40,525 nt of DNA. It comes from Przondovirus NAN33P6. Made by a program: the position numbers and the translations under genes. Location of the stretch: sequence record OZ035736.1; one strand, given 5' to 3'. The notes beneath the pieces were generated by a model, which worked only from the letters and a program-made list of their open reading frames with translations, had not been told where the DNA came from and made no database searches. The first letter of the stretch is position 1. Each line of letters starts with the position of its first letter. This document shows, piece after piece, positions 1-40,525 of this stretch.

Positions 1-29
1 TGAGCGCCCAGACTTATAAGGAGTAACAT

Positions 30-287
30 ATGGACCTGATTAAGTTCCTCGAAATGTTAGACACTGAGATGGCTCAGCAGATGCTCATGGACCTGAAGAA
101 TCCCGAGAAGCGAACCCCTCAGCTGTACAACGCCATTGGTAAACTACTGGAGCGGCACAAGTTCCAAATCTCTAAGCTGACCCCTGACGTTAACATCTTG
201 GGCGGTCTTGCTGAAGGTCTGGAGGCTTACAACTCCAAGGTGGGTGCTGATGGTCTGACAGATGACGATAAGTTCACCCTACAGTGA
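30..287 (+). CDS. 18: Terminase small subunit (DNA maturase A), T7 gp18 homolog
   Basis: 85 aa; FLEMLDT.MAQ.ML.DL...PQLYNAI.KLL.RHKFQI.KL.PDV.ILGGLA...GLTDDD..TLQ matches recalled T7 gp18 nearly end to end; AAGGAG RBS at 20-25. Confidence 0.9.
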   Translation: MDLIKFLEMLDTEMAQQMLMDLKNPEKRTPQLYNAIGKLLERHKFQISKLTPDVNILGGLAEGLEAYNSKVGADGLTDDDKFTLQ

Positions 288-335
288 TATACTCAAGGTA
301 CTACTATATGTAGTGCCTTTATGGATGTCATTGCA
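288..335 (+). promoter_or_regulatory. Putative RNase III processing hairpin (R18.5-like)
   Basis: ACTCAAGGTA...TACTATATGTAGTG...CCTTTATGGA; same motif family recurs at about 9470, 10005 and 16590 and resembles the recalled T7 R1.1 substrate (ACUCAAGGUCA...GGCCUUUAUGAUUG). Confidence 0.55.
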
Positions 336-6073: not shown

Positions 6074-8794
6074 ATGAACGCATTAAACATTGCACGTAAT
6101 GACTTCTCAGAGATTGAACTAGCAGCTATCCCGTACAATATCCTCAGTGAGCACTATGGGGACAAGCTGGCACGTGAGCAGTTAGCACTGGAGCACGAGG
6201 CGTACGAGCTGGGTGAGCAGCGTTTCCTGAAGATGTTAGAACGTCAGGTGAAAGCTGGCGAGTTCGCTGACAACGTGGCCGCTAAACCGCTGGTCCTAAC
6301 GTTGCACCCGCAGCTGACCAAGCGTATTGACGACTGGAAGGAGGAGCAAGCAAACGCTCGCGGTAAGAAACCTCGCGCATACTACCCGATTAAGCACGGT
6401 GTGGCTTCTGAGTTAGCTGTTAGCATGGGCGCTGAGGTGCTCAAAGAGAAGCGCGGAGTGTCCAGTGAGGCAATCGCACTGCTAACCATCAAGGTCGTCT
6501 TAGGGACGCTCACAGACGCCTCAAAGGCCACAATCCAGCAGGTGTCCTCACAGTTAGGCAAGGCCCTTGAGGATGAGACCCGCTTCGGTCGTATCCGTGA
6601 GCAGGAAGCCGCATACTTCAAGAAGAACGTAGCGGACCAGCTGGACAAGCGAGTAGGCCACGTGTACAAGAAGGCTTTCATGCAGGTAGTCGAGGCCGAT
6701 ATGATATCCAAAGGGATGCTGGGCGGCGACAACTGGGCGAGCTGGAAAACTGACGAGCAGATGCACGTAGGGACCAAGCTGCTGGAGCTGCTTATCGAGG
6801 GGACTGGTCTGGTGGAAATGACCAAGAACAAGATGGCCGATGGCTCCGACGATGTGACCAGTATGCAGATGGTCCAGCTGGCTCCGGCGTTTGTGGAACT
6901 CCTGAGCAAACGAGCGGGCGCACTCGCGGGTATCAGTCCGATGCACCAGCCGTGCGTAGTCCCTCCGAAACCTTGGGTGGAGACTGTAGGCGGTGGCTAC
7001 TGGTCAGTCGGTCGTCGCCCTCTGGCACTGGTGCGTACCCACTCCAAGAAGGCGCTGCGCCGCTACGCAGACGTGCACATGCCCGAGGTATACAAGGCGG
7101 TCAACCTCGCGCAAAACACGCCGTGGAAGGTGAACAAGAAGGTGCTGGCGGTAGTCAACGAGATTGTCAACTGGAAGCACTGCCCGGTTGCTGACGTCCC
7201 AGCGATTGAACGTGAAGAGCTACCACCACGCCCGGACGATATTGACACCAACGAGGTGGCACGTAAGGCATGGCGCAAGGAGGCCGCAGCGGTCTACCGT
7301 AAGGACAAGGCCCGCCAGTCTCGCCGTTTGTCAATGGAGTTCATGGTCGCACAGGCCAACAAGTTCGCTAACCACAAGGCCATCTGGTTTCCTTACAACA
7401 TGGACTGGCGCGGACGTGTGTACGCTGTGAGCATGTTCAACCCGCAGGGTAACGACATGACCAAGGGTATGCTGACGCTGGCTAAGGGCAAGCCAATCGG
7501 TCTCGATGGGTTCTACTGGCTGAAGATTCATGGTGCAAACTGTGCAGGCGTCGACAAGGTTCCCTTCCCTGAGCGCATCAAGTTCATCGAAGAGAACGAG
7601 GGCAACATTCTGGCGAGTGCAGCTGACCCACTGAATAACACTTGGTGGACACAGCAGGATTCACCATTCTGTTTCTTAGCGTTTTGCTTCGAGTACGCAG
7701 GCGTTAAGCATCACGGCCTGAATTACAACTGCTCGCTGCCGCTGGCGTTCGATGGGTCATGCTCTGGGATTCAACACTTCAGCGCTATGCTCCGCGATTC
7801 CATCGGTGGTCGTGCGGTAAACCTGCTGCCATCTGATACCGTGCAGGATATCTACAAGATTGTGGCTGATAAGGTCAACGAGGTGCTCCACCAGCACGCT
7901 GTCAACGGGTCTCAGACGGTGGTCGAGCAGATTGCCGACAAGGAGACTGGCGAGTTCCGCGAGAAGGTAACGCTGGGTGAGTCCGTACTGGCTGCGCAGT
8001 GGTTGCAATACGGCGTGACCCGCAAGGTGACTAAGCGTTCGGTCATGACGTTGGCGTACGGTTCCAAAGAGTTCGGCTTCCGCCAGCAAGTTCTTGAGGA
8101 TACCATTCAGCCAGCTATTGACAACGGCGAGGGCTTGATGTTTACGCACCCTAACCAAGCGGCTGGCTACATGGCTAAGCTGATTTGGGACGCTGTGACC
8201 GTGACCGTAGTGGCCGCTGTCGAGGCGATGAACTGGCTGAAGTCTGCCGCTAAACTGCTGGCCGCTGAAGTCAAGGACAAGAAGACCAAAGAGGTGCTCC
8301 GTAAGCGCTGCGCAATCCACTGGGTAACACCAGACGGCTTCCCGGTGTGGCAGGAATACCACAAGCGTGACCAAGCGCGCCTGAAGCTGACGTTTCTGGG
8401 TCAGGCCAACGTGTTCATGACGTACAACAAAGGGGATACCAAAGAGATTGACGCACATAAGCAGGAGTCAGGAATCGCTCCTAACTTTGTGCACTCACAG
8501 GATGGTAGTCACCTGCGCATGACCGTAGTGCACGCCAACGAGGTCTACGGGATTGACTCCTTCGCGCTCATTCATGACTCCTTCGGGACCATTCCGGCAG
8601 ACGCTGGGAATCTCTTTAAGGCAGTCCGTGAGACGATGGTCAAGACCTACGAGGATAACGATGTAATCGCTGACTTTTATGACCAGTTCGCTGACCAGCT
8701 GCATGAGTCTCAACTGGACAAAATGCCTGCGGTCCCGGCCAAAGGTGACCTGAATCTGCGCGATATCTTAGAGTCTGACTTCGCGTTCGCCTAA
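6074..8794 (+). CDS. 1: Single-subunit DNA-dependent RNA polymerase, T7 gp1 family
   Basis: 906 aa; extensive near-identity to recalled T7 RNAP (AIWFPYNMDWRGRVYAVSMFNPQGNDMTKG, LPLAFDGSCSGIQHFSAMLRD, HDSFGT, C-terminal FAFA); specificity-loop region differs (RLKLTFLGQANVFMTYN versus T7 RLNLMFLGQFRLQPTIN). Confidence 0.97.
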   Translation: MNALNIARNDFSEIELAAIPYNILSEHYGDKLAREQLALEHEAYELGEQRFLKMLERQVKAGEFADNVAAKPLVLTLHPQLTKRIDDWKEEQANARGKKPRAYYPIKHGVASELAVSMGAEVLKEKRGVSSEAIALLTIKVVLGTLTDASKATIQQVSSQLGKALEDETRFGRIREQEAAYFKKNVADQLDKRVGHVYKKAFMQVVEADMISKGMLGGDNWASWKTDEQMHVGTKLLELLIEGTGLVEMTKNKMADGSDDVTSMQMVQLAPAFVELLSKRAGALAGISPMHQPCVVPPKPWVETVGGGYWSVGRRPLALVRTHSKKALRRYADVHMPEVYKAVNLAQNTPWKVNKKVLAVVNEIVNWKHCPVADVPAIEREELPPRPDDIDTNEVARKAWRKEAAAVYRKDKARQSRRLSMEFMVAQANKFANHKAIWFPYNMDWRGRVYAVSMFNPQGNDMTKGMLTLAKGKPIGLDGFYWLKIHGANCAGVDKVPFPERIKFIEENEGNILASAADPLNNTWWTQQDSPFCFLAFCFEYAGVKHHGLNYNCSLPLAFDGSCSGIQHFSAMLRDSIGGRAVNLLPSDTVQDIYKIVADKVNEVLHQHAVNGSQTVVEQIADKETGEFREKVTLGESVLAAQWLQYGVTRKVTKRSVMTLAYGSKEFGFRQQVLEDTIQPAIDNGEGLMFTHPNQAAGYMAKLIWDAVTVTVVAAVEAMNWLKSAAKLLAAEVKDKKTKEVLRKRCAIHWVTPDGFPVWQEYHKRDQARLKLTFLGQANVFMTYNKGDTKEIDAHKQESGIAPNFVHSQDGSHLRMTVVHANEVYGIDSFALIHDSFGTIPADAGNLFKAVRETMVKTYEDNDVIADFYDQFADQLHESQLDKMPAVPAKGDLNLRDILESDFAFA

Positions 8795-32142: not shown

Positions 32143-35100
32143 ATGAGCTACGATAAGTCTAAACCTAGCGATTACGATGGCATCTTCCAGAAGGCAGCAG
32201 ACTCTCATGGGGTCTCCTATGACCTCCTGCGTAAGTTATCGTTTAACGAATCATCCTTCAACCCTAAGGCCGTCTCTAAGACTGGCCCTAAGGGCATCAT
32301 GCAGTTCACCCGCAACACGGCCCGAGCGATGGGCCTTAACGTGACAGACGGTGACGACGATGGGCGCTACAACCCTGAGTTAGCCATTGACGCTGGTGCT
32401 AAGCTGCTTGCGAGCCTCGTTAAGAAGTACAATGGGGATGAGCTGAAAGCAGCCCTAGCGTACAACCAAGGGGAAGGCCCAGCGGGTGCTCCCCAGCTCC
32501 AAGCGTACGACAAGGGAGACTTCGGGTCTATCTCGGAGGAAGGTCGTAACTACATGCGCAAGCTGCTGGATGTGGCCAAGAGTCCGAACTCAGGCGCACT
32601 GGAGGCGTTCGGTGGCATCACCCCAAAGGGTAAAGGGATTCCCGCAGAGGATGCCTTCAAGGGCATCGCTAAGGCTGGAAAGGTTGGTACCGAACTGCCG
32701 GAGTCCCATGGGTTCGACGTTGAAGGTGTAGCGCAGGAAGCGCCCAACACTCCGTACGCTAAGGACTTCTGGGAGAAGACCGGGACGACTCTCGACGAGT
32801 ATAACGCTCGGTCAACCTTCTTCGGGTTCGGGGATGCGGCTGAAGCTCAGATTCAGAACTCCACATTAGGTGTGGCCTTCCGTGCTGCGCGTGCCGACGA
32901 TGGGTATGATGTGTTCAAGGACACGATGACCCCGACTCGCTGGAACTCTTATGTTCCATCCAAGGAAGACTTGCAGAAGCTGCGCGACTCTGGGTTACCT
33001 CCGAGTTACTACGGTGTGGTGACTGGTGGTGACGGCGAGAACTGGGATGCACTCATCAAGCTGGCCAAGGATAACTTCGAGGCTGACCAACGGGCCGCTG
33101 AGGCTGGTACTGGGGCGAAACTCGCTGCTGGTATCGTTGGTGCTGGTGTAGACCCACTAAGCTATGCACCTCTGGTCGGTGTGGCCGGGAAAGGACTCAA
33201 GGTGGTCAATAAGGCCCTGCGAGTAGGCGCACAGGCTGGAGCACTCAGTGTTGCCTCTGAGGGAATCCGTACGTCAGTAGCTGGTGGTGAAGCTCACTAC
33301 GCTGATGCAGCACTTGGCGGGTTACTGTTCGGTGCTGGCATGTCGGCTCTTAGTGACGCTGTGGCCGCTGGTATCCGCAAGGCTCGTGGAGTAGACTCCG
33401 TGAATGAGTTCGCTGGTCCAGCACTCCGCATGGAAGCACGAGAGACTGCCATAAACACTGGGGGTCACGACACCTCGACTCTACCTCCAGAGAACTTCTC
33501 GTTCGAGCAGGGCCACAGAGGTGTTCCGTTCGCCGACCACCCGACCGAAGAGGGCGCAGTGGTTCTGGCTAATGGTTCCATCCTGAGCGATACCAACCCG
33601 CTTAACCCAAGGACTCAACGTGACTTCGCAGAGATTGACCCAGAGCGTGCAGCCCCCGGTATCAGGCTCGGTGGGTTCACTGAGATTGGCCTGAAGACCT
33701 TAGGGTCCAAGGATGCTGGTGTTCGTGCAATCGCTCAGGACCTCGTGCGCTCTCCAACAGGGATGCAATCAGGGTCTAGTGGTAAGTTCGGGGCTACAGC
33801 TTCGGACATCCATGAGCGGCTCCATGCGACTGACCAACGGATGTACAACCAACTGTATGACGCTGTTGACCGCGCCATGAAGGACCCAGAGTTCTCCGTG
33901 GGTGAGCAGAAGATGTCACGCAGAGCCATCCGTCAGGAAGTCTACAAGCGTGCTGCCTTGGCGATTGAGCGCCCAGAGTTACAGGCTGATTTGACCAAAG
34001 GTGAACGTGAGGTGATGGACCTGCTGAAGGAGCACTTCGACACCAAGCGTGAACTGATGGAACAGCCGGGTATCTTCGGTAACGCTAACGCCGTGAGCAT
34101 CTTCCCCGGTAGTCGACACAAGGGTACCTACGTGCCTAACGTGTACGACAGGGGCGCTAAGGAACTGATGATGCAGAAGCTGGGTGGACCTGAAGGGCTC
34201 CAACAGGCAATCGCTCAGAGCTGGCTCACCAGTTACCGAGTGCGTCCTGAGGTCAAGGCACGTGTCGACGAGTACCTTATGGAACTCAACGGCTACAAGT
34301 CGGTAGACCAAGTGACACCTGAGGTGGTCCAGAAGCACGCCATTGACAAGGCTTACGGTATCAGTCACACAGAGGACTTCACAGCGTCCAGCGTCATTGA
34401 CGACAACATCACAGGTCTGGTCGGTATCGAGAACAACTCGTTCCTTGAAGCCCGTAACATGTTCGACAGCGACATCCCGGTCACCTTGCCGGACGGGTCA
34501 ACCTTCAGTGTCAACGACCTGAGGGACTTCGATATGGCACGGATTATCCCAGCGTACGACCGTCGAGTTAACGGTGATATCTCCATCATGGGTGGCAGTG
34601 GGAAGACCACGAAGCAGCTCAAGGACGAAATCATGGCGTTAGACAAGCGGGCCGAACGTAAGGGGCAACTGAAGGGTGAAGTGGAAGCGCTGAAGGACAC
34701 CGTTAAGATTCTCACTGGGCGTGCTCGACGTAACAACGATACAGCCTTTGAGACGGCTATGCGTTCCCTGAATGATCTAGCGTTCTTCGCTAAGAACTTC
34801 TACATGGGTCCGCAGAACCTCACAGAGATTGCTGGGATGTTGGCTAAGGGTAACGTTAAGGCGATGCTACACGGTATCCCAACGTTGCGAGACCTCGCCA
34901 CCAGAACCTCTCCGGTGTCGGGTAGTGAACTTCGTGAACTCCATGGGGCGCTGTTCGGTAAGGAACTCGACCAGTTAATCCGTCCTGGACGTGAGGACAT
35001 CGTACAGCGAATCCGTGAGGCTTCCGATACCAGTGGAGCCATGGCGTCAGTCATTGGTACCATTAAGTTCGGCACTCAGGAGCTGTCAGCACGCTCTCCT

Positions 35101-36108
35101 TGGACCAAGATGTTGAATGGTACAGCCAACTACATTCTGGACACTGCCCGTCAAGGTGTGCTCGGTGATGTGGCTGGTGCGGCCCTAGGCGGTAAGGGTT
35201 CCAAGTTTGGTAAAGAGAACTTCCTCAAAGCTGCCTCTATCAGTCCTGAGCAGTGGAAGGGCATCAAGCAACTCTTTGTCGACCACGCGACTCGTGACGC
35301 TAACGGCCAGTTCACCATCAAGGACAAGAAGGCTTTCAGTCAGGACCCGAGAGCGATGGACCTGTGGCGTCTTGCCGATAAGGTTGCCGACGAGACCATG
35401 CTACGGCCTCACAAGGTATCACAGCAGGATTCCAAGGCGTACGGTGCTGGTGTCAAGATGGCTATGCAGTTCAAGAACTTCACCATCAAGTCACTCAACG
35501 CTAAGTTCATTCGGTCCTTCTATGAGGGCTACAAGAACAACCGCGCTATCGACATGGCATTGACCCACATCCTGTCACTCGGTATAGCCGGGACTTACTA
35601 TGCGATGCAGGCCCACGTGAAGGCTTACGGTCTCCAAGAGTCTCAACGTAAGGACTACCTGAAGAAAGCCCTGAACCCGACCATGCTGGTGTACGCAGCG
35701 TTGACTCGAAGTTCCCACATTGGTGCCCCGCTGTCCATCGTCTCGATGATTGCAGGTGCCGCTGGGTTCCAAGATGCAAACATGCTGCGCTCCACCATCT
35801 TGCCTAAGGAGGAACAGTTCCAGAAGAAAGGCGGGGCGTCCAAAGGTCGGGCTGAGTCGAGTAACCTTGCGGGTAACCTAGGGTCTCAGGTCCCGGCTCT
35901 TGGTTACGTAGGGAACGTCATTGCGACCGCTAAGAACGCCTACGGTGTTGTTACAGCACCCAATAAGCCGACTGAGCGCGACTACATGACTGGCCTGATG
36001 AACTCCACTAAGGAGCTTGTGCCGAACGACCCGCTGACCCAACAGCTCATAATGAAAATCTATGAGGCTAACGGAGTAACCATCAAACAGCAGCCTAAAC
36101 CCAACTAA
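32143..36108 (+). CDS. 16: Internal virion (core) protein D with N-terminal lytic transglycosylase domain, T7 gp16 homolog
   Basis: 1321 aa; PSDYDG.FQKAAD..GVSYDLLRK, TGP.G.MQFT (transglycosylase motif region), KAALAYNQGEG, long conserved central and C-terminal runs (ARSPWTK.LNGT.NY.LD.ARQG, DPLTQQL..KIYEANGV). Confidence 0.95.
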   Translation: MSYDKSKPSDYDGIFQKAADSHGVSYDLLRKLSFNESSFNPKAVSKTGPKGIMQFTRNTARAMGLNVTDGDDDGRYNPELAIDAGAKLLASLVKKYNGDELKAALAYNQGEGPAGAPQLQAYDKGDFGSISEEGRNYMRKLLDVAKSPNSGALEAFGGITPKGKGIPAEDAFKGIAKAGKVGTELPESHGFDVEGVAQEAPNTPYAKDFWEKTGTTLDEYNARSTFFGFGDAAEAQIQNSTLGVAFRAARADDGYDVFKDTMTPTRWNSYVPSKEDLQKLRDSGLPPSYYGVVTGGDGENWDALIKLAKDNFEADQRAAEAGTGAKLAAGIVGAGVDPLSYAPLVGVAGKGLKVVNKALRVGAQAGALSVASEGIRTSVAGGEAHYADAALGGLLFGAGMSALSDAVAAGIRKARGVDSVNEFAGPALRMEARETAINTGGHDTSTLPPENFSFEQGHRGVPFADHPTEEGAVVLANGSILSDTNPLNPRTQRDFAEIDPERAAPGIRLGGFTEIGLKTLGSKDAGVRAIAQDLVRSPTGMQSGSSGKFGATASDIHERLHATDQRMYNQLYDAVDRAMKDPEFSVGEQKMSRRAIRQEVYKRAALAIERPELQADLTKGEREVMDLLKEHFDTKRELMEQPGIFGNANAVSIFPGSRHKGTYVPNVYDRGAKELMMQKLGGPEGLQQAIAQSWLTSYRVRPEVKARVDEYLMELNGYKSVDQVTPEVVQKHAIDKAYGISHTEDFTASSVIDDNITGLVGIENNSFLEARNMFDSDIPVTLPDGSTFSVNDLRDFDMARIIPAYDRRVNGDISIMGGSGKTTKQLKDEIMALDKRAERKGQLKGEVEALKDTVKILTGRARRNNDTAFETAMRSLNDLAFFAKNFYMGPQNLTEIAGMLAKGNVKAMLHGIPTLRDLATRTSPVSGSELRELHGALFGKELDQLIRPGREDIVQRIREASDTSGAMASVIGTIKFGTQELSARSPWTKMLNGTANYILDTARQGVLGDVAGAALGGKGSKFGKENFLKAASISPEQWKGIKQLFVDHATRDANGQFTIKDKKAFSQDPRAMDLWRLADKVADETMLRPHKVSQQDSKAYGAGVKMAMQFKNFTIKSLNAKFIRSFYEGYKNNRAIDMALTHILSLGIAGTYYAMQAHVKAYGLQESQRKDYLKKALNPTMLVYAALTRSSHIGAPLSIVSMIAGAAGFQDANMLRSTILPKEEQFQKKGGASKGRAESSNLAGNLGSQVPALGYVGNVIATAKNAYGVVTAPNKPTERDYMTGLMNSTKELVPNDPLTQQLIMKIYEANGVTIKQQPKPN

Positions 36109-36129
36109 TTAGGTAGCACTATAGGGAGA
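36107..36129 (+). promoter_or_regulatory. Phage RNAP promoter (phi17-like)
   Basis: AATTAGGTAGCACTATAGGGAGA exact consensus; transcript starts with GGGAGACC...GGTTTCCC inverted repeat. Confidence 0.85.
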
Positions 36130-36170: not shown

Positions 36171-38702
36171 ATGGACCAAGAAATTAAAACAGTCATCCAG
36201 TACCCCACAGGGTCCACTGAGTTCGACATCCCGTTCGACTACCTGTCCCGTCGCTTCGTCAGAGTGTCTCTGGTCTCTGAGGATTCCAGAAGACTGCTGA
36301 GTAACATCACGGAGTACCGCTACGTCTCCAAGACCAGAATCAAACTACTGGTTTCTACTGAAGGTTTCGACCGTGTTGAGATTCGTCGGTTTACCTCAGC
36401 CTCTGAGCGAATTGTTGACTTCAATGATGGCTCTGTGCTGCGAGCAACAGACCTTAACGTATCACAGCTACAGTCGGCGCATATTGCGGAAGAAGCCCGT
36501 GACGCAGCCCTGCTGGCCATGCCTCAGGACGACGCAGGTAACCTCGATGCACGCAGTCGCCGTATCGTTAACTTGGCTCCCGGTATTGACGGCACTGACG
36601 CTATCAATAAGAACCAGTTAGATTCAACGCTGGGTGAGGCTGGTGGTATCCTTTCTGATATGAAAGAAGTACAGAAGGAAACCTATGACTACATCGAGAA
36701 GCTCGGTGACGACACTTCGATTGTCCGTGGGGTAACTTGGGTGTACAATCAAGGGTCTGCCGTTGGTGGCGAGACTACTGTACTCATCGATAAACCTACC
36801 CGCACGCTGGCCGTTCCTTATATTGAGATTAATGGTAGCCGCCAAGAGGTTGGGTATCACTTCTCGTTTGATATTGCCACCCAGATGATTACCTTAACGG
36901 AACCACTGGTTACCGGGGACTTCCTGATGGCAATGACCACAGAGTCTAGTGTACCTCTGGAAGACCTTCTGACCAACCCTACTGGTGCCTCGGCTATTGG
37001 TACCTCCGATGGTCGAAACGTTCAGGCAAACATCGACGAGCTTCGCTCCGAGTTAGACTTCCTGAAAGACACGACGGTACTTGACGTTAGACGCTTTGGT
37101 GCTGTTGGTGATGGTATTGCAGATGATTACCCAGCGTTTCAGAAAGCGTGCATAGCCGCTAGTCAACTTGGTGGGGCAATAGTCCACGTACCGACTCCAA
37201 AGGTAAAATGGAAGATTGGATTCCCGGTTTACTTGTTCGACCGCACTTGGGTCCGTGGGACAGGCATCAACTGTATTGTCGAGTTCACTGACCCGCTGTA
37301 TGCTCGCAAGTCCCGCTCTGGGTTCGTCATTGGGTCTGGCTACGAGCAGAACCGCGACAAGGCTATTCAATGTCTTAACGATGGCACTTGGGCCACTACT
37401 GGTTCGGTGGTAGATAGGAACTTCGTTGAGTTGGACCGAGGTCAGTACGTTCGCGACAATCCGAGCAAGGTCCAGTCGAGACTGTGCCGAGTGTCCGGGA
37501 TGTACCTGAAGGCTTCATATCCGAATGGTGCTACCCTGAAGGGTGGTTACGCAGTGTCTGGTGCCAACGCAGTAGACTCAGAGGTATTTGATATCTGGGG
37601 CGAAGGTTGGACTGAGATTATCAACTTCGGGTCTGACGTACCACCAGCTACACCAAGCTGTCACAACCTCCATGCGTACGACATCACGTGTGTTGCACCT
37701 AACGACTACGAGACGTACTACAGTGCAGGATTCATTGCGAACTCTACAAGTTGCTCTATTGGCCGCTTCAAGCAGCTCAGGGCAATAGCTGACGGTTCTC
37801 CTCATGGTTCCTGTGGTTCCACGAACTACACCGAGTTCTGTTCGTTCTATGACATTGATGTGCCCAATCTTGGTCGTACTGCATCTTCTGAGGGTATCCT
37901 CGTGAACAACTCTAAGGGCGCGGTGACTCGTAACATCCGTATCGGGAACGCTAAGACGTGCGTGGCTGAATACTACACCACTGGTGCGGGTATCTTCTAC
38001 GACCGTAACCATCCGAACGTGTTCGACGGTATTCACGCTAACAACTGTGACAACGCGGTAGCTCTCCGCTCCAAGTTCTCAGTTTGGAAGAACGTGACGC
38101 AGACCAACTGTACCTATCACGTCTACTTCGGGACTACCAACGCACAAGCCTGTGTGGTCAAGTTCGTACCGGACACAATCGGTGGTGGTAATAACGTAGA
38201 CATTCTGGACAGGCTCCGCGATAACGTTGTGACTGGCTGGCGTGTGCGCTCGCTCCACATCCGACCCATCGCCTACCTACTGAACGACAAGTCAGTGTTG
38301 CGTAGCTGGGATGCTGGTAAGAACATCAAGGCTGAGAACGGTGTGGGATTCCAGTGGTTATTCCCTGTACCATCTACCATGCGTGCAATCACTCAGGTCA
38401 GCCAATGGTTTACCTTCGAGGTGGGTGCAGCGACGGCCGGGACAGAGGTCAAGGTTCAGGTTCGCCGTATGTCAGCGTACAACGGAGACGCCAACGAGCA
38501 GCCTGTAATCCTCTTTGAGAACAGCCGCAAGGCCTCTCTGGATACCGTACAGGCTACTAACATTGTTGCCAACTCCCCGGGTCTGGTCCTGACGTCCCCT
38601 ACGGATGGACTGGCTAACGCTGTGGATGTCCTCGTGAGTGTTACAGCGCCGACCGTTAACTTCAACATGAAAGAAGCTCGCATCACGTATCTGGGCGACT
38701 AA
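36171..38702 (+). CDS. 17: Tail fibre/tailspike: T7 gp17-like N-terminal adaptor domain fused to a large, non-T7 C-terminal domain with depolymerase-like (pectate-lyase-type beta-helix) features
   Basis: 843 aa versus 553 in T7; first ~150 aa match T7 gp17 (F.IPF.YL.R.FV.V.L, VDF.DGS.LRA.DLNV.Q.Q..H.AEEARD, LDAR.RRIVNLA); downstream begins [22 protein letters not shown], a motif typical of beta-helix glycanase/depolymerase tailspikes. Confidence 0.85.
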
Positions 38703-38715
38703 CTAAGGAGACAGT

Positions 38716-40302
38716 ATGTTAAACAAATTGAATCAACCTAAAGGCTCTACAATCGGTGTGCTCAAGGATGGGCGCACCGTCCAAGAGGCAATCGACGAGC
38801 TGGAGAAGATTAAGACCCGCAACGTTGACCCTGAGCGCTTCCGTGAGACACTGACGTCAAGTGACGATGAGGTATTCGAGAAGCTGTTCGCGTGGTTGGC
38901 TACTCAGTCAGACGTTGTGGGAACCTCAAGTTCTTCCTATATCACAGCCTTACCTCGCATGATTGAGCTTAGCGGTCGTACCTATACGTTGACTAAGCGT
39001 CACGTGCTGGACGGTAACTTTGGTATACAGAACGGTACCATCCTGATGTCCGGTGAGGGTGAGATTATCATGGGCCTCGATGCTGGTACCAAGACTCGTC
39101 GTCACTTCCTTAAGTATGCACATTTTGAGTACATCGGGGAAACAGACCGTAGCACCTCTCTGGTCACCATGGCGCGGTGCTTCAACTCTGTGGTTCTGTT
39201 CTGTAACTTCATAGCTGGTGGCGATGCCGCTCGCAACAGGGCTCCACGTACACGTTACGGCCTGTTCGCAGGGTCCACCAGATGCTGGGGCTTACAGTTA
39301 ATCGGTGGTGAGTATTATGGTGGCGACTGTGCGTTGCGTGTTGGACGCGCTAACGACCACACTGGGTTGACCATTCGTCCCGGTACTGTTCACCATTCTC
39401 GCGTTATCAATATGCTACTATGTAACCCAGCGGGTGCTGAGGTGTCTGGTTGTAACATTGAACACGCAGACAATGGTGCCATCGGCCTAGGGATTACCTC
39501 CGGTACCAATACATCAGGTAACGCAGCCCATGGCGTTCGCATCAATGGTGTGTACTTATACAACAACGGTAACGGCTCCAGCGGCTCAAACGTAGCACCT
39601 GCGAATATTCTCATTGGTAAGGACATTCCGGGCACCGAAGGTTGGGACCGCCCGGGCGAGTTGATTACGTCAAGCCGAAACACCGCGCACAGTATTACTG
39701 TGTCAGAGTGCTACATTGTAAGCCCAAACACAGAGAATGCCTGGCAGGTGAACGCCCTGTACGGTGTGTCCTTCGTGGACAACAAAGTGGGCCTCAAAGG
39801 TGACGCTACGATTCACGGTGTGTACGACGGTACGTGTGCTAACTGCTGGGCTGTTGGAAACCGAGATCAAGGCGGTAAGGTATTCCAGTTCTCCTCTACA
39901 GCAACCAACGCGATTCTGACTACCCGCAAAGGTAAGTGGACTCCGAAGATTATCGGTGAGGGTACGGCAGGTAACACTACACTGAGTGCTTCTGGCGGCG
40001 CATACTCTCTGGATAATGGAATGGTAACCGTATCGTGCTTCGCAGTGGTAGACACTAAGGATCCTAACATGGCTGGGAACCTGAACATCAAACTCCCGGT
40101 AGCCTGTGAGGACCAGCAGCGAGGTGGTAACGGAATTTCTCTGACTAACATCCCCGGCGTATCGAGTCCTAACGGGAGTGTTATAATCATTGGGGATACC
40201 GCTCGAATCATGCTAGGGTCTGCGAGATTGCAGCCCGAGAACATCACAACAGGCACTGCTATCCACTTCTCAGTGTCATACCCAGCCGATGTTAAGGTAT
40301 AA
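38716..40302 (+). CDS. Second tailspike-like protein (putative receptor-binding protein/glycanase) lacking a gp17-type adaptor domain
   Basis: 528 aa; strong RBS AAGGAGACAG; no T7 counterpart between gene 17 and 17.5; Gly/Asn/Thr-rich repetitive segments consistent with a beta-helix; sequence-composition inference only. Confidence 0.6.
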   Translation: MLNKLNQPKGSTIGVLKDGRTVQEAIDELEKIKTRNVDPERFRETLTSSDDEVFEKLFAWLATQSDVVGTSSSSYITALPRMIELSGRTYTLTKRHVLDGNFGIQNGTILMSGEGEIIMGLDAGTKTRRHFLKYAHFEYIGETDRSTSLVTMARCFNSVVLFCNFIAGGDAARNRAPRTRYGLFAGSTRCWGLQLIGGEYYGGDCALRVGRANDHTGLTIRPGTVHHSRVINMLLCNPAGAEVSGCNIEHADNGAIGLGITSGTNTSGNAAHGVRINGVYLYNNGNGSSGSNVAPANILIGKDIPGTEGWDRPGELITSSRNTAHSITVSECYIVSPNTENAWQVNALYGVSFVDNKVGLKGDATIHGVYDGTCANCWAVGNRDQGGKVFQFSSTATNAILTTRKGKWTPKIIGEGTAGNTTLSASGGAYSLDNGMVTVSCFAVVDTKDPNMAGNLNIKLPVACEDQQRGGNGISLTNIPGVSSPNGSVIIIGDTARIMLGSARLQPENITTGTAIHFSVSYPADVKV

Positions 40303-40311
40303 GGAGGTATC

Positions 40312-40521
40312 ATGTTGTCCCTAGACTTCAACAACGAAGTTATCAAGGCGGCTCCCATTGCGGGGGTCGCTGGGGCCGATGGTGTAGCGAGGCTCTTCTG
40401 GGGCCTCTCACTCAACGAGTGGTTCTACGTCGCGGCAATCGCCTACACAGTGGTTCAGATTGGTGCCAAGGTAGTCGATAAAATCATTGATTGGAAGAAA
40501 GCAAACAGAGGTGACTCATGA
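40312..40521 (+). CDS. 17.5: Class II holin, T7 gp17.5 homolog
   Basis: 69 aa; MLSLDFNNE.IKAAPI.G...AD..ARLF.GLSLNEWFYVAAIAYTVVQIGAKVVDK.IDWKKAN nearly identical to recalled T7 gp17.5; stop overlaps an ATG at 40518. Confidence 0.95.
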   Translation: MLSLDFNNEVIKAAPIAGVAGADGVARLFWGLSLNEWFYVAAIAYTVVQIGAKVVDKIIDWKKANRGDS

Positions 40522-40525
40522 GAGA

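What the first reader, a model, noticed from the sequence alone, without database searches (positions are those of the whole stretch)
36171..40302. Two-protein receptor-binding module: enlarged gene 17 with a depolymerase-like C-terminus plus an extra tailspike-like ORF without an adaptor domain
Gene 17 keeps about 150 aa of T7-type tail-attachment sequence but then carries some 690 aa of unrelated sequence starting with a [20 protein letters not shown] motif typical of beta-helix glycanases. A second 528-aa ORF (38716-40302), absent from T7, is Gly/Asn/Thr-rich and repetitive but has no gp17-type N-terminus, so it would have to dock onto gp17 or the tail by another interface. This pattern suggests a dual-specificity or branched tailspike system targeting surface polysaccharide, and an encapsulated enterobacterial host.
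Basis: partly seen in the sequence, partly recalled or inferred. Interest (0 to 1): 0.65.

Follow-up and report, generated by a model that had tools for sequence, protein, structure and literature searches.

The report
Known two-tailspike module of Klebsiella phage
The two genes are the standard branched pair of capsule-digesting tailspikes of KP32-like Klebsiella phages: the first is 98% identical to an enzyme shown to digest the K57 capsule, and the second is an uncharacterised tailspike that carries the family's known docking peptide, so the finding is real but ordinary.

Summary
Both ORFs exist exactly as reported: 36171-38702 (843 aa) and 38716-40302 (528 aa). The window is a Przondovirus (KP32-like Klebsiella phage), 98.8% identical over this locus to the deposited phage NAN33P2.

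It is 98% identical to Dep_kpv767, a proven K57-specific beta-galactosidase.

Modest new points:
- The 69-aa "truncated second RBP" of KpV767 is an in-frame deletion of this very gene.
- Other Przondoviruses carry a 155-159-aa "mini-RBP2" (docking peptide plus C-terminal domain) that still evolves under constraint.

Interest is low.

The parts
36106..36129 (+). Phage-RNA-polymerase promoter (T7 phi17-like), TAATTAGGTAGCACTATAGGGAGA. It overlaps the stop codon of gene 16 and drives RBP1, RBP2 and the holin.
   Evidence: The core CACTATAGGGAGA occurs 9 times in the window on the + strand with up to 1 mismatch, against 0.02 expected. One copy is at 36117-36129 (sequence). No further copy, and no above-chance sigma-70 promoter or terminator, lies between the two RBP genes.
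36171..38702 (+). RBP1 (gene 17 homologue, 843 aa): the anchored primary tailspike and capsule depolymerase.
   Evidence: ORF with an AAGGAGG ribosome-binding site. It is 98% identical (822/843) to KpV767 gp46, Dep_kpv767.
36171..36632 (+). RBP1 anchor domain (aa 1-154), the T7 gp17-type tail-attachment domain.
   Evidence: Pfam PF03906, E 3.6e-37. It also matches the T7 gp17 N-terminus (PDB 7boz, 8e4g) and the Kp9 tail complex 7y1c.
36633..37070 (+). RBP1 coiled-coil neck plus branching ('T4gp10-like') domain (aa 155-300; beta core about aa 186-257). This is the docking site for RBP2.
   Evidence: aa 155-299 match the Kp9 type I tail fibre 7xy1 (E 2e-49). aa 183-253 match the N-terminal domain of tailspike chains 7rej/7rfo (E 5e-11) and 9d80/9d83. 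It aligns without gaps to KP32gp37, with Arg224 and Val227 conserved. The literature places the T4gp10-like domain of the near-identical KpV767 protein at aa 188-256.
37083..38699 (+). RBP1 depolymerase module (aa 305-843): a right-handed beta-helix starting at [11 protein letters not shown], plus C-terminal beta domains.
   Evidence: The AF2 model has high confidence across most of this region (most 10-residue blocks above 80, with dips near aa 376-381 and 408-417) and is nearly all beta-strand. Foldseek hits include K2-2 TSP, KP32gp38, AlgE4/6 and polygalacturonases. The recombinant KpV767 fragment lacking aa 1-252 cleaves K57 capsule.
38716..40302 (+). RBP2 (528 aa): the secondary, branched tailspike.
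   Evidence: ORF with an AAGGAG ribosome-binding site, starting 13 nt after the RBP1 stop. pN/pS is 0.05 against PMBT12 and KA1-1.
38716..38814 (+). RBP2 docking ('conserved') peptide, aa 1-33: MLNKLNQPKGSTIGVLKDGRTVQEAIDELEKIK.
   Evidence: It matches aa 1-35 of KP32gp38 (6tku) and the P560 depolymerase (7vul). N6-R20, Q23 and A25 are invariant in 16 second RBPs whose remaining sequence is unrelated. tblastn finds 165 phage records, only 8 of which match 80% or more of RBP2; most listed hits cover only the N-terminal part.
38938..39915 (+). RBP2 beta-helix body (about aa 75-400), with invariant motifs NDHTG (213-217) and NIEH (247-250). Presumed polysaccharide-degrading domain.
39922..40299 (+). 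RBP2 C-terminal beta-sandwich domain (aa 403-528).
   Evidence: The AF2 model shows nine beta-strands at pLDDT ~85-93. This domain is the part retained in the 155-159-aa mini-RBP2 of other Przondoviruses.
40312..40521 (+). Class II holin (T7 gp17.5 homologue). It is the downstream boundary of the RBP cassette and not part of the module.
   Evidence: Pfam PF10746, E 7e-33; PHROG 920 holin.

Best explanation
The locus is the anchor-branched dual receptor-binding-protein cassette of a Przondovirus (KP32-like Klebsiella podophage). One phage-polymerase promoter upstream of gene 17 transcribes RBP1, RBP2 and the holin together.

RBP1 trimers attach to the tail through the T7 gp17-type anchor (aa 1-154). 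A coiled-coil neck and branching domain (aa 155-300) follow. The distal beta-helix (aa ~305-843) binds and hydrolyses K57-type capsular polysaccharide at beta-galactosidic linkages.

RBP2 has no anchor. Its first ~30 residues are the conserved docking peptide, which binds the RBP1 branching domain, so each of the six tail positions carries a branched pair of spikes. The RBP2 beta-helix most likely degrades a second surface polysaccharide, probably a capsule of another K type and possibly one from non-pneumoniae Klebsiella. This adds a second host specificity. RBP2 is an accessory: relatives have deleted all or most of it and remain viable on the RBP1 host.

Shown here: gene anatomy, homologies, predicted folds, conservation of the peptide and branching residues, purifying selection, and modular exchange.

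Taken from the literature: the enzymatic activity of the 98%-identical RBP1, and the dependence of RBP2 function on the peptide and the branching domain in KP32.

Inferred: that RBP2 is catalytically active, and what it targets.
For: - **Identity of the phage:** megablast gives 98.8% to Przondovirus NAN33P2 and 92.7% to Klebsiella phage PMBT12 over the whole locus. 222 of 234 matching records are Klebsiella phages.
- **Gene order:** gp16-RBP1-RBP2-holin is the same as in KP32, PMBT12 and KA1-1.
- **RBP1:** PF03906 anchor. It is 98% identical to Dep_kpv767, which produces halos only on K57 strains, competes with phage adsorption and cleaves the beta-galactosidic linkage of K57 capsule (PMC7693772). 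The predicted C-terminal part is a beta-helix.
- **Branching domain:** aa 155-300 are homologous to Kp9 gp42 (7xy1) and to tailspike N-terminal domains 7rej/7rfo. Arg224 and Val227, the predicted contacts in KP32gp37, are conserved.
- **Docking peptide:** it matches KP32gp38 and the P560 depolymerase and is invariant across 16 otherwise unrelated second RBPs.
- **Experiments in KP32:** deleting the peptide or removing the branching domain stops propagation on the RBP2-specific host (indirect evidence that RBP2 is not incorporated; the authors note direct proof is still lacking), and calorimetry shows the peptide is needed for RBP1-RBP2 binding (PMC13352976). RBP2 is dispensable for assembly (PMC13082707).
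- **RBP2 constraint:** pN/pS 0.04-0.05, with 137 synonymous against 22 non-synonymous differences.
- **Modular exchange:** the RBP1 catalytic module occurs behind a KP32-type docking peptide (P0041) and behind a KP34-type MALxxLV peptide (P0048). The RBP2 body occurs behind T7-type anchors (P0011, P0017), a P22 head-binding domain (P0009) and PF18668 (P0018).
- **Co-transcription:** a promoter lies at 36106-36129 with none between the genes, and each gene has a ribosome-binding site.
Against: - No activity, substrate or virion localisation is known for RBP2 or any detectable relative. It has no Pfam, NCBIfam or sequence-level PDB match beyond the peptide.
- The T4 gp10 protein itself was not retrieved by sequence search from aa 155-304. 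'T4gp10-like' therefore rests on published HHpred results for the KpV767 protein and on homology to KP32gp37.
- Two of the four predicted KP32gp37 contact residues (His261, Arg275) are Val and Ala here.
- The RBP1-RBP2 complex was not modelled. The monomer model of the RBP1 N-terminal 300 aa has low confidence.
- PMBT12, which has both RBPs, lysed only its K. grimontii isolation strain in a small panel, so dual host range is undemonstrated for this RBP pair.
Confidence: 0.88

Rival explanations
1. RBP2 is virion-bound through the docking peptide but is a non-catalytic adhesin. Its beta-helix only binds a surface glycan or protein and does not cleave it.
Confidence: 0.1
2. RBP2 is not attached to RBP1. 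Either it is a soluble enzyme released at lysis, or it binds another tail component (nozzle or adaptor) directly.
For: No complex was modelled or observed here. Free depolymerases without structural domains have been proposed for some Klebsiella podoviruses (PMC9989827).
Against: RBP2 carries the exact peptide that is necessary for RBP2 function on KP32 virions and sufficient to bring a foreign enzyme onto them. Removing the RBP1 branching domain abolishes RBP2 function. The peptide is invariant across unrelated bodies, as expected for an interface and not for a soluble enzyme.
Confidence: 0.03
3. RBP2 is a dispensable gene on its way to loss and contributes nothing to host range in this phage.
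For: KpV767 has deleted codons 68-526 of this same gene and still infects K57 strains. At least 11 protein clusters are 155-159-aa internally deleted forms. In KP32, RBP2 is not needed for assembly or for infection through RBP1.
Against: The full-length gene is intact here and in NAN33P1/2, PMBT12 and KA1-1. It shows pN/pS 0.04-0.05 with pS ~0.3-0.36, which is incompatible with neutral decay. KA1-1 pairs it with a different RBP1 on a K. aerogenes host, so the module is maintained and moved between phages.
Confidence: 0.05

Closest known systems
Klebsiella phage KP32 gp37/gp38 ('KP32viruses group A' anchor-branched dual-RBP system; Latka et al. 2019, PMC6872550; Latka et al. 2026, PMC13352976)
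   Same: Same genus and same gene order (gp16-RBP1-RBP2-holin). RBP1 aa 1-320 are 65% identical, including branching-domain residues Arg224 and Val227. The RBP2 docking peptide is the same (MLDNFNQPKGSTIGVLKDGRTIQEAFD in KP32, MLNKLNQPKGSTIGVLKDGRTVQEAID here). Both RBPs are beta-helix tailspikes.
   Different: The catalytic modules are unrelated in sequence. KP32gp37 targets K3 and gp38 targets K21. Here RBP1 is the K57 enzyme and RBP2 belongs to an uncharacterised family. RBP2 here ends in a single ~125-aa beta-sandwich, not the CBM-lectin tandem of gp38.
Klebsiella phage KpV767 gp46 (Dep_kpv767) and gp47 ('KP32viruses group C', second RBP truncated)
   Same: RBP1 is 98% identical over all 843 aa. 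The 69-aa gp47 is 99% identical to RBP2 aa 1-67 and ends with the same last two codons.
   Different: KpV767 lacks codons 68-526 of RBP2, an in-frame deletion at the imperfect repeat CAGACGTT / CCGATGTT. The window carries the intact gene, so it is the group A counterpart of KpV767.
Klebsiella phages PMBT12, NAN33P1/P2 and KA1-1 (deposited genomes)
   Same: NAN33P2 (98.8% nt), NAN33P1 (92.9% nt) and PMBT12 (92.7% nt) carry the same RBP1 and RBP2. KA1-1 carries RBP2 at 96% aa identity.
   Different: KA1-1 has an unrelated RBP1 catalytic module (37-53% nt identity after about nt 37070) and a K. aerogenes host. PMBT12 was isolated on K. grimontii. In the annotated records RBP2 is labelled 'hypothetical protein' (PMBT12) or 'tail fiber protein' (KA1-1), and the PMBT12 paper does not analyse it.
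E. coli phage G7C gp66/gp63.1 and the tailspike complex of phage CBA120 (T4 gp10-like branching domains)
   Same: The principle is the same: an anchored primary tailspike bearing a gp10-like domain on which a second tailspike docks. RBP1 aa 183-253 match the N-terminal domain of tailspike chains 7rej/7rfo at E 5e-11. That these entries are CBA120 tailspike 4 is my own recollection, not a tool result.
   Different: These are other phage families. The docking element of their secondary spikes is a folded N-terminal domain, not the ~30-aa Przondovirus peptide. G7C gp66 has both gp10-like subdomains (D2 and D3), whereas the Klebsiella podophage domain is shorter.
T7 gp17 tail fibre
   Same: The N-terminal ~150-aa tail-attachment domain is shared (PF03906; PDB 7boz, 8e4g).
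   Different: Nothing is similar beyond aa ~155. T7 has a fibre shaft and tip instead of a branching domain and beta-helix enzyme, and no second RBP gene between gene 17 and the holin (established knowledge of the T7 map).

Membership tests
Przondovirus / KP32virus group A anchor-branched dual-RBP system | First RBP with an N-terminal T7 gp17-type anchor domain | tested here: met
   PF03906 on aa 1-154, E 3.6e-37, 127.9 bits against a cut-off of 25.2. aa 1-331 match Kp9 gp42 (7xy1) at E 1e-140.
Przondovirus / KP32virus group A anchor-branched dual-RBP system | Branching domain in the first RBP (about aa 186-257) homologous to that of KP32gp37 | tested here: met
   Gap-free alignment to KP32gp37 through aa ~296, with Arg224 and Val227 conserved. 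aa 155-299 match 7xy1 at E 2e-49 and aa 183-253 match 7rej/7rfo at E 5e-11.
Przondovirus / KP32virus group A anchor-branched dual-RBP system | Similarity of that domain to T4 gp10 domains D2/D3 | tested here: inconclusive
   phmmer of aa 155-304 against all PDB sequences at E up to 10 did not retrieve T4 gp10. The published HHpred probabilities for the 98%-identical KpV767 protein are 85.35 and 84.24. No profile-profile or structural comparison to gp10 was possible here.
Przondovirus / KP32virus group A anchor-branched dual-RBP system | Second RBP without an anchor but with the conserved ~29-aa N-terminal peptide | tested here: met
   aa 1-35 match KP32gp38 aa 1-35, and aa 1-31 match the P560 depolymerase. 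N6-R20, Q23 and A25 are invariant in 16 second RBPs.
Przondovirus / KP32virus group A anchor-branched dual-RBP system | Both RBP genes lie between internal virion protein D (gp16) and the holin | tested here: met
   gp16 homologue at 32143-36108, RBP1, RBP2, then holin at 40312-40521. KP32, PMBT12 and KA1-1 have the same order.
Przondovirus / KP32virus group A anchor-branched dual-RBP system | Physical docking of RBP2 on RBP1 in the virion | not testable with these tools
   Tested genetically and by calorimetry for KP32 only (PMC13352976).
Right-handed parallel beta-helix tailspike depolymerases (pectate-lyase-like fold) | Central right-handed beta-helix fold | tested here: met
Right-handed parallel beta-helix tailspike depolymerases (pectate-lyase-like fold) | Homotrimeric assembly | not tested
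   Only monomers were modelled.
Right-handed parallel beta-helix tailspike depolymerases (pectate-lyase-like fold) | Polysaccharide-degrading activity | not testable with these tools
   For RBP1 this is inferred from 98% identity to the characterised Dep_kpv767. For RBP2 no characterised relative exists.
K57-specific beta-galactosidase depolymerases (Dep_kpv767 / Dep_kpv79) | High sequence identity across the catalytic region (aa 309-671 of kpv767_46) | tested here: met
   822/843 identical with no gaps. pN/pS is 0.08 between the two genes.
T7 gp17 tail fibre | Fibre shaft and C-terminal tip domain after the anchor | tested here: not met
   Matches to T7 gp17 chains stop at aa ~151. The rest is a branching domain plus a beta-helix.

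The most novel reading that the evidence does not exclude
The RBP2 position of Przondoviruses exists in three natural states of the same gene:
- the full 528-aa tailspike (this window);
- a 155-159-aa 'mini-RBP2' that joins the docking peptide directly to the C-terminal beta-sandwich;
- a 69-aa stub (KpV767).

The mini form has at least three different junctions and still shows pN/pS ~0.1-0.17. It may therefore be a functional, non-enzymatic occupant of the branching site, such as a small lectin-like binder or a structural cap. That would be an unrecognised class of secondary RBP.

Separately, the full RBP2 may extend the host range of a K57 K. pneumoniae phage to K. oxytoca-complex or K. aerogenes strains.
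Probability: 0.2. Interest if true: 0.45.

Novelty: new member of a known kind. Interest (0 to 1): 0.18.

Why it matters
The architecture and the docking mechanism are textbook for Klebsiella podophages, so the main value is practical.
- The locus pairs a validated K57 depolymerase (K57 is a hypervirulence-associated capsule type) with an intact secondary tailspike from a small family (27 clusters) that has no characterised member. That tailspike is a candidate source of a new capsule or O-antigen specificity for depolymerase catalogues and plug-and-play RBP engineering.
- It also shows that the 'group C' truncated second RBP of KpV767 is a recent deletion of this gene.
- The short docking-peptide-plus-C-terminal-domain proteins are excluded by the length filters of the two RBP surveys I checked.

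Tried and rejected
- **Sequence repeats in RBP2:** Tandem Repeats Finder found nothing in 36171-40302, so 'repetitive' was dropped.
- **Family assignment of RBP2:** Pfam, NCBIfam and PHROGs gave no hit beyond the N-terminal peptide. A 26-sequence profile against all PDB sequences gave 0 hits at E up to 10. No hydrolase-versus-lyase call could be made. A resemblance of the NDHTG motif to the DPHE/D motif of alginate epimerases (the motif is my recollection) could not be tested and is not claimed.
- **Direct T4 gp10 similarity by sequence:** not found.
- **Host clues for RBP2:**
  - A scan of one genome per species for relatives found none.
  - IMG/VR gave 19 loci at 35-43% identity but no organism names.
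  - No supplements are held for the PMBT12 paper, so the capsule type of its host is unknown.
  - No paper was found for KA1-1 or the NAN33 phages.
  - The DepoCatalog main text has no hit for KpV767 or K11PH164C1 and gives no lead on RBP2; its supplementary sequences were not checked.
- **Internal regulatory signals:** sigma-70 promoter-like and terminator-like sites inside the locus are at or below chance.
- **Antisense ORFs:** 37578-38036 (152 aa) and 39867-40415 (182 aa) were treated as spurious because every gene of this phage type is on the + strand. They were not searched further.


Full report
**1. Observation**

They lie between a gp16-type internal virion protein (32143..36108) and a T7-type class II holin (40312..40521; Pfam PF10746, E 7e-33).

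What holds:
- RBP1 aa 1-154 are a T7 tail-fibre N-terminal domain (PF03906, E 3.6e-37).
- The motif [20 protein letters not shown] exists and aligns to the start of the pectate-lyase-like family PF12708.
- RBP2 is moderately enriched in Gly, Asn and Thr.

What needs correction:
- The motif lies at aa 305-324 (nt 37083), not directly after the anchor.
- RBP2 has no sequence repeats.
- RBP2 lacks a gp17-type domain, but its first ~30 residues are one of the most conserved stretches of the locus.

**2. What the window is**

Megablast of the locus finds 234 phage records, 222 of them Klebsiella phages.
- Przondovirus NAN33P2: 98.8% identity over all 4132 nt.
- NAN33P1 and Klebsiella phage PMBT12: about 93%.
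- KpV767: 94.6% over RBP1 and the first 200 nt of RBP2.

A T7-like phage promoter core, CACTATAGGGAGA, occurs nine times on the + strand (0.02 expected). One copy is at 36117-36129, immediately upstream of gene 17.

There is no further promoter copy between RBP1, RBP2 and the holin, and no above-chance sigma-70 promoter or terminator. The genes are 13 and 9 nt apart, and each is preceded by AAGGAG. The three genes therefore form one late transcription unit.

The window is a circular permutation of a whole ~40.5-kb genome. Gene 18 starts at nt 30 and the holin ends at 40521.

**3. RBP1**

The protein is 98% identical (822/843, no gaps) to KpV767 gp46. A recombinant fragment of that protein lacking aa 1-252, Dep_kpv767, behaves as follows (PMC7693772):
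- it gives halos only on K57 strains;
- it competes with phage adsorption;
- it hydrolyses the beta-galactosidic linkage of K57 capsule.

The AF2 monomer model is confident across most of aa ~300-843 and almost entirely beta-strand there. It is poor for the N-terminal 300 aa, as expected for a trimeric coiled coil modelled as a monomer. Foldseek matches include the Kp9 tail complex (N-terminus, 88% identity), Klebsiella K2-2 TSP, KP32gp38, AlgE4/6 and polygalacturonases.

aa 155-300 match the Kp9 type I tail fibre (7xy1, E 2e-49). The core, about aa 183-253, matches the N-terminal domain of tailspike chains 7rej/7rfo (E 5e-11) and 9d80/9d83.

The region aligns without gaps to KP32gp37 through aa ~296. 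Arg224 and Val227 are retained; these are the two branching-domain residues predicted to contact the RBP2 peptide. His261 and Arg275 are not retained.

Latka et al. place the T4gp10-like domain of the KpV767 protein at aa 188-256 by HHpred. I could not reproduce a direct hit to T4 gp10 by simple sequence search.

**4. RBP2**

aa 1-35 match KP32gp38 (6tku) aa 1-35, and aa 1-31 match the P560 depolymerase (7vul). Nothing else in the PDB matches by sequence.

In an alignment of 16 second RBPs whose bodies are unrelated (22% mean column identity), N6-R20, Q23 and A25 are invariant. tblastn finds 165 phage records, but only 8 match 80% or more of RBP2, and most listed hits cover only the N-terminal part.

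The AF2 model, built from 26 homologues, has pLDDT 87.2 and pTM 0.80. It contains:
- N-terminal helices;
- a long beta-helix, about aa 75-400;
- a nine-stranded beta-sandwich, aa 403-528.

Structural searches agree on the fold:
- Foldseek ranks Det7, HK620, Sf6 and LKA1 tailspikes first.

Invariant residues include D214-H215 (NDHTG) and E249-H250 (NIEH).

The gene is clearly maintained. Against PMBT12 it shows 137 synonymous and 22 non-synonymous differences (pN/pS 0.05).

The beta-helix family is small. Only 27 representative clusters out of 1.84 billion proteins match at E <= 1e-3, and none is characterised. The named members come from Raoultella, K. aerogenes and K. oxytoca genomes, and one relative lies in the Serratia rubidaea phage IME250.

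Phages carrying the near-identical protein were isolated on K. grimontii (PMBT12) and K. aerogenes (KA1-1). The substrate is unknown. A capsule type of non-pneumoniae Klebsiella is a reasonable guess, but only a guess.

**5. Mechanism**

The anatomy is exactly that of the 'KP32viruses group A' anchor-branched system (PMC6872550).

For KP32 the mechanism has been tested (PMC13352976):
- calorimetry shows the peptide is needed for RBP1-RBP2 binding;
- fusing the peptide to a foreign enzyme brings that enzyme onto the virion.

RBP2 is not required for assembly or for infection through RBP1 (PMC13082707).

I therefore conclude, with high confidence, that RBP1 anchors to the tail and digests K57 capsule, and that RBP2 docks on the RBP1 branching domain through its first ~30 residues. 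With moderate confidence, RBP2 digests a second polysaccharide.

**6. Modular exchange**

- The RBP1 catalytic module occurs at 72% identity behind a KP32-type docking peptide in the 570-aa tail spike of vB_Kpn_K11PH164C1 (P0041). It also occurs behind the KP34-type MALxxLV peptide (P0048).
- The RBP2 body occurs behind T7-type anchors (P0011, P0017), a P22 head-binding domain (P0009) and PF18668 (P0018).
- Module borders lie at about aa 300 in RBP1 and about aa 33 in RBP2.

**7. Things not in the literature I could search**

(a) KpV767's 69-aa 'truncated second RBP' is 99% identical to RBP2 aa 1-67 and ends in the same two codons. The junction lies at the imperfect repeat CAGACGTT / CCGATGTT. 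It is therefore an in-frame deletion of codons 68-526 of this gene.

(b) At least 11 protein clusters from ~40-kb Przondovirus contigs are 155-159-aa 'mini-RBP2' proteins. Examples are RCIP0018, VAC71, 71Y, cp43/46 and the phi1_1460xx phages. The docking peptide is fused directly to the C-terminal beta-sandwich, at 87-98% identity to the window.
- Three junction types exist.
- Among mini forms pN/pS is 0.08-0.17, though on only 2-14 synonymous differences per pair.
- The two RBP surveys I checked excluded such short proteins by length filters: under 200 aa in one, under 500 aa for literature phages in the other.

(c) The window's C-terminal domain is much closer to the mini forms (pS ~0.1) than to the full-length PMBT12 and KA1-1 alleles (pS 0.5-0.6). 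This points to a recombination breakpoint inside RBP2.

**8. Verdict**

The system is a described and experimentally dissected one, and near-identical genomes are already public. RBP1 is effectively a known enzyme. RBP2 is a new, uncharacterised member of the docking-peptide class of secondary tailspikes. Interest is low (0.18). The only mildly novel thread is the conserved mini-RBP2.

Noticed in passing
window 38716-40302; L001 (KpV767) 6546-6755: The 69-aa 'hypothetical protein' kpv767_47 is an in-frame deletion derivative of the window's RBP2. It keeps aa 1-67 at 99% identity and the last two codons. The junction lies at the imperfect repeat CAGACGTT (window ~38910) / CCGATGTT (window ~40287).
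   Followed up: yes
window 39922-40299; L003 3501-3974, L005 3501-3974, L006 3001-3480, L007 3001-3474, L008 3001-3468, L009 3001-3474: A 155-159-aa 'mini-RBP2' (docking peptide fused to the C-terminal beta-sandwich, with no beta-helix) occurs in at least 11 protein clusters of K. pneumoniae Przondoviruses. It has three junction types and pN/pS 0.08-0.17. It may be functional and not a decaying remnant.
   Followed up: partly
window 39900-40302: The C-terminal domain of RBP2 is mosaic. Synonymous divergence is ~0.1 to the mini-RBP2 alleles but 0.5-0.6 to the full-length PMBT12 and KA1-1 alleles. This suggests a recombination breakpoint near aa 400 and independent movement of this domain.
   Followed up: partly
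window 2675, 3517, 9995, 12327, 13995, 23144, 24216, 28832, 36117 (+ strand): There are nine copies of the phage RNA-polymerase promoter core CACTATAGGGAGA with up to 1 mismatch (0.02 expected by chance). This gives the late and middle promoter map of the genome.
   Followed up: partly
window 1-300 and 40500-40525: The window is a circularly permuted, essentially complete ~40.5-kb genome. Gene 18 (small terminase) starts at nt 30, directly after the holin that ends at 40521. The physical genome ends and terminal repeat must therefore lie inside the window.
   Followed up: partly
window 36561-36647 (RBP1 aa 131-159): There is a Pfam YadA_stalk match (PF05662, E 4e-7, just above its cut-off) at the anchor-neck transition. 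This is a trimeric coiled-stalk motif shared with bacterial autotransporter adhesins.
   Followed up: no
window 37578-38036 (-) and 39867-40415 (-): Long antisense ORFs of 152 and 182 aa lie inside RBP1 and across the RBP2-holin boundary. They are presumed spurious because all genes of this phage type are on one strand, but they were not searched.
   Followed up: no
P0041, P0048 (homologues of RBP1 aa ~300-843): The K57-type catalytic module also exists as a secondary RBP: behind a KP32-type docking peptide in a phage named for K11 (vB_Kpn_K11PH164C1, 72% identity) and behind the KP34-type MALxxLV peptide. Whether 72% identity keeps K57 specificity is unknown.
   Followed up: partly
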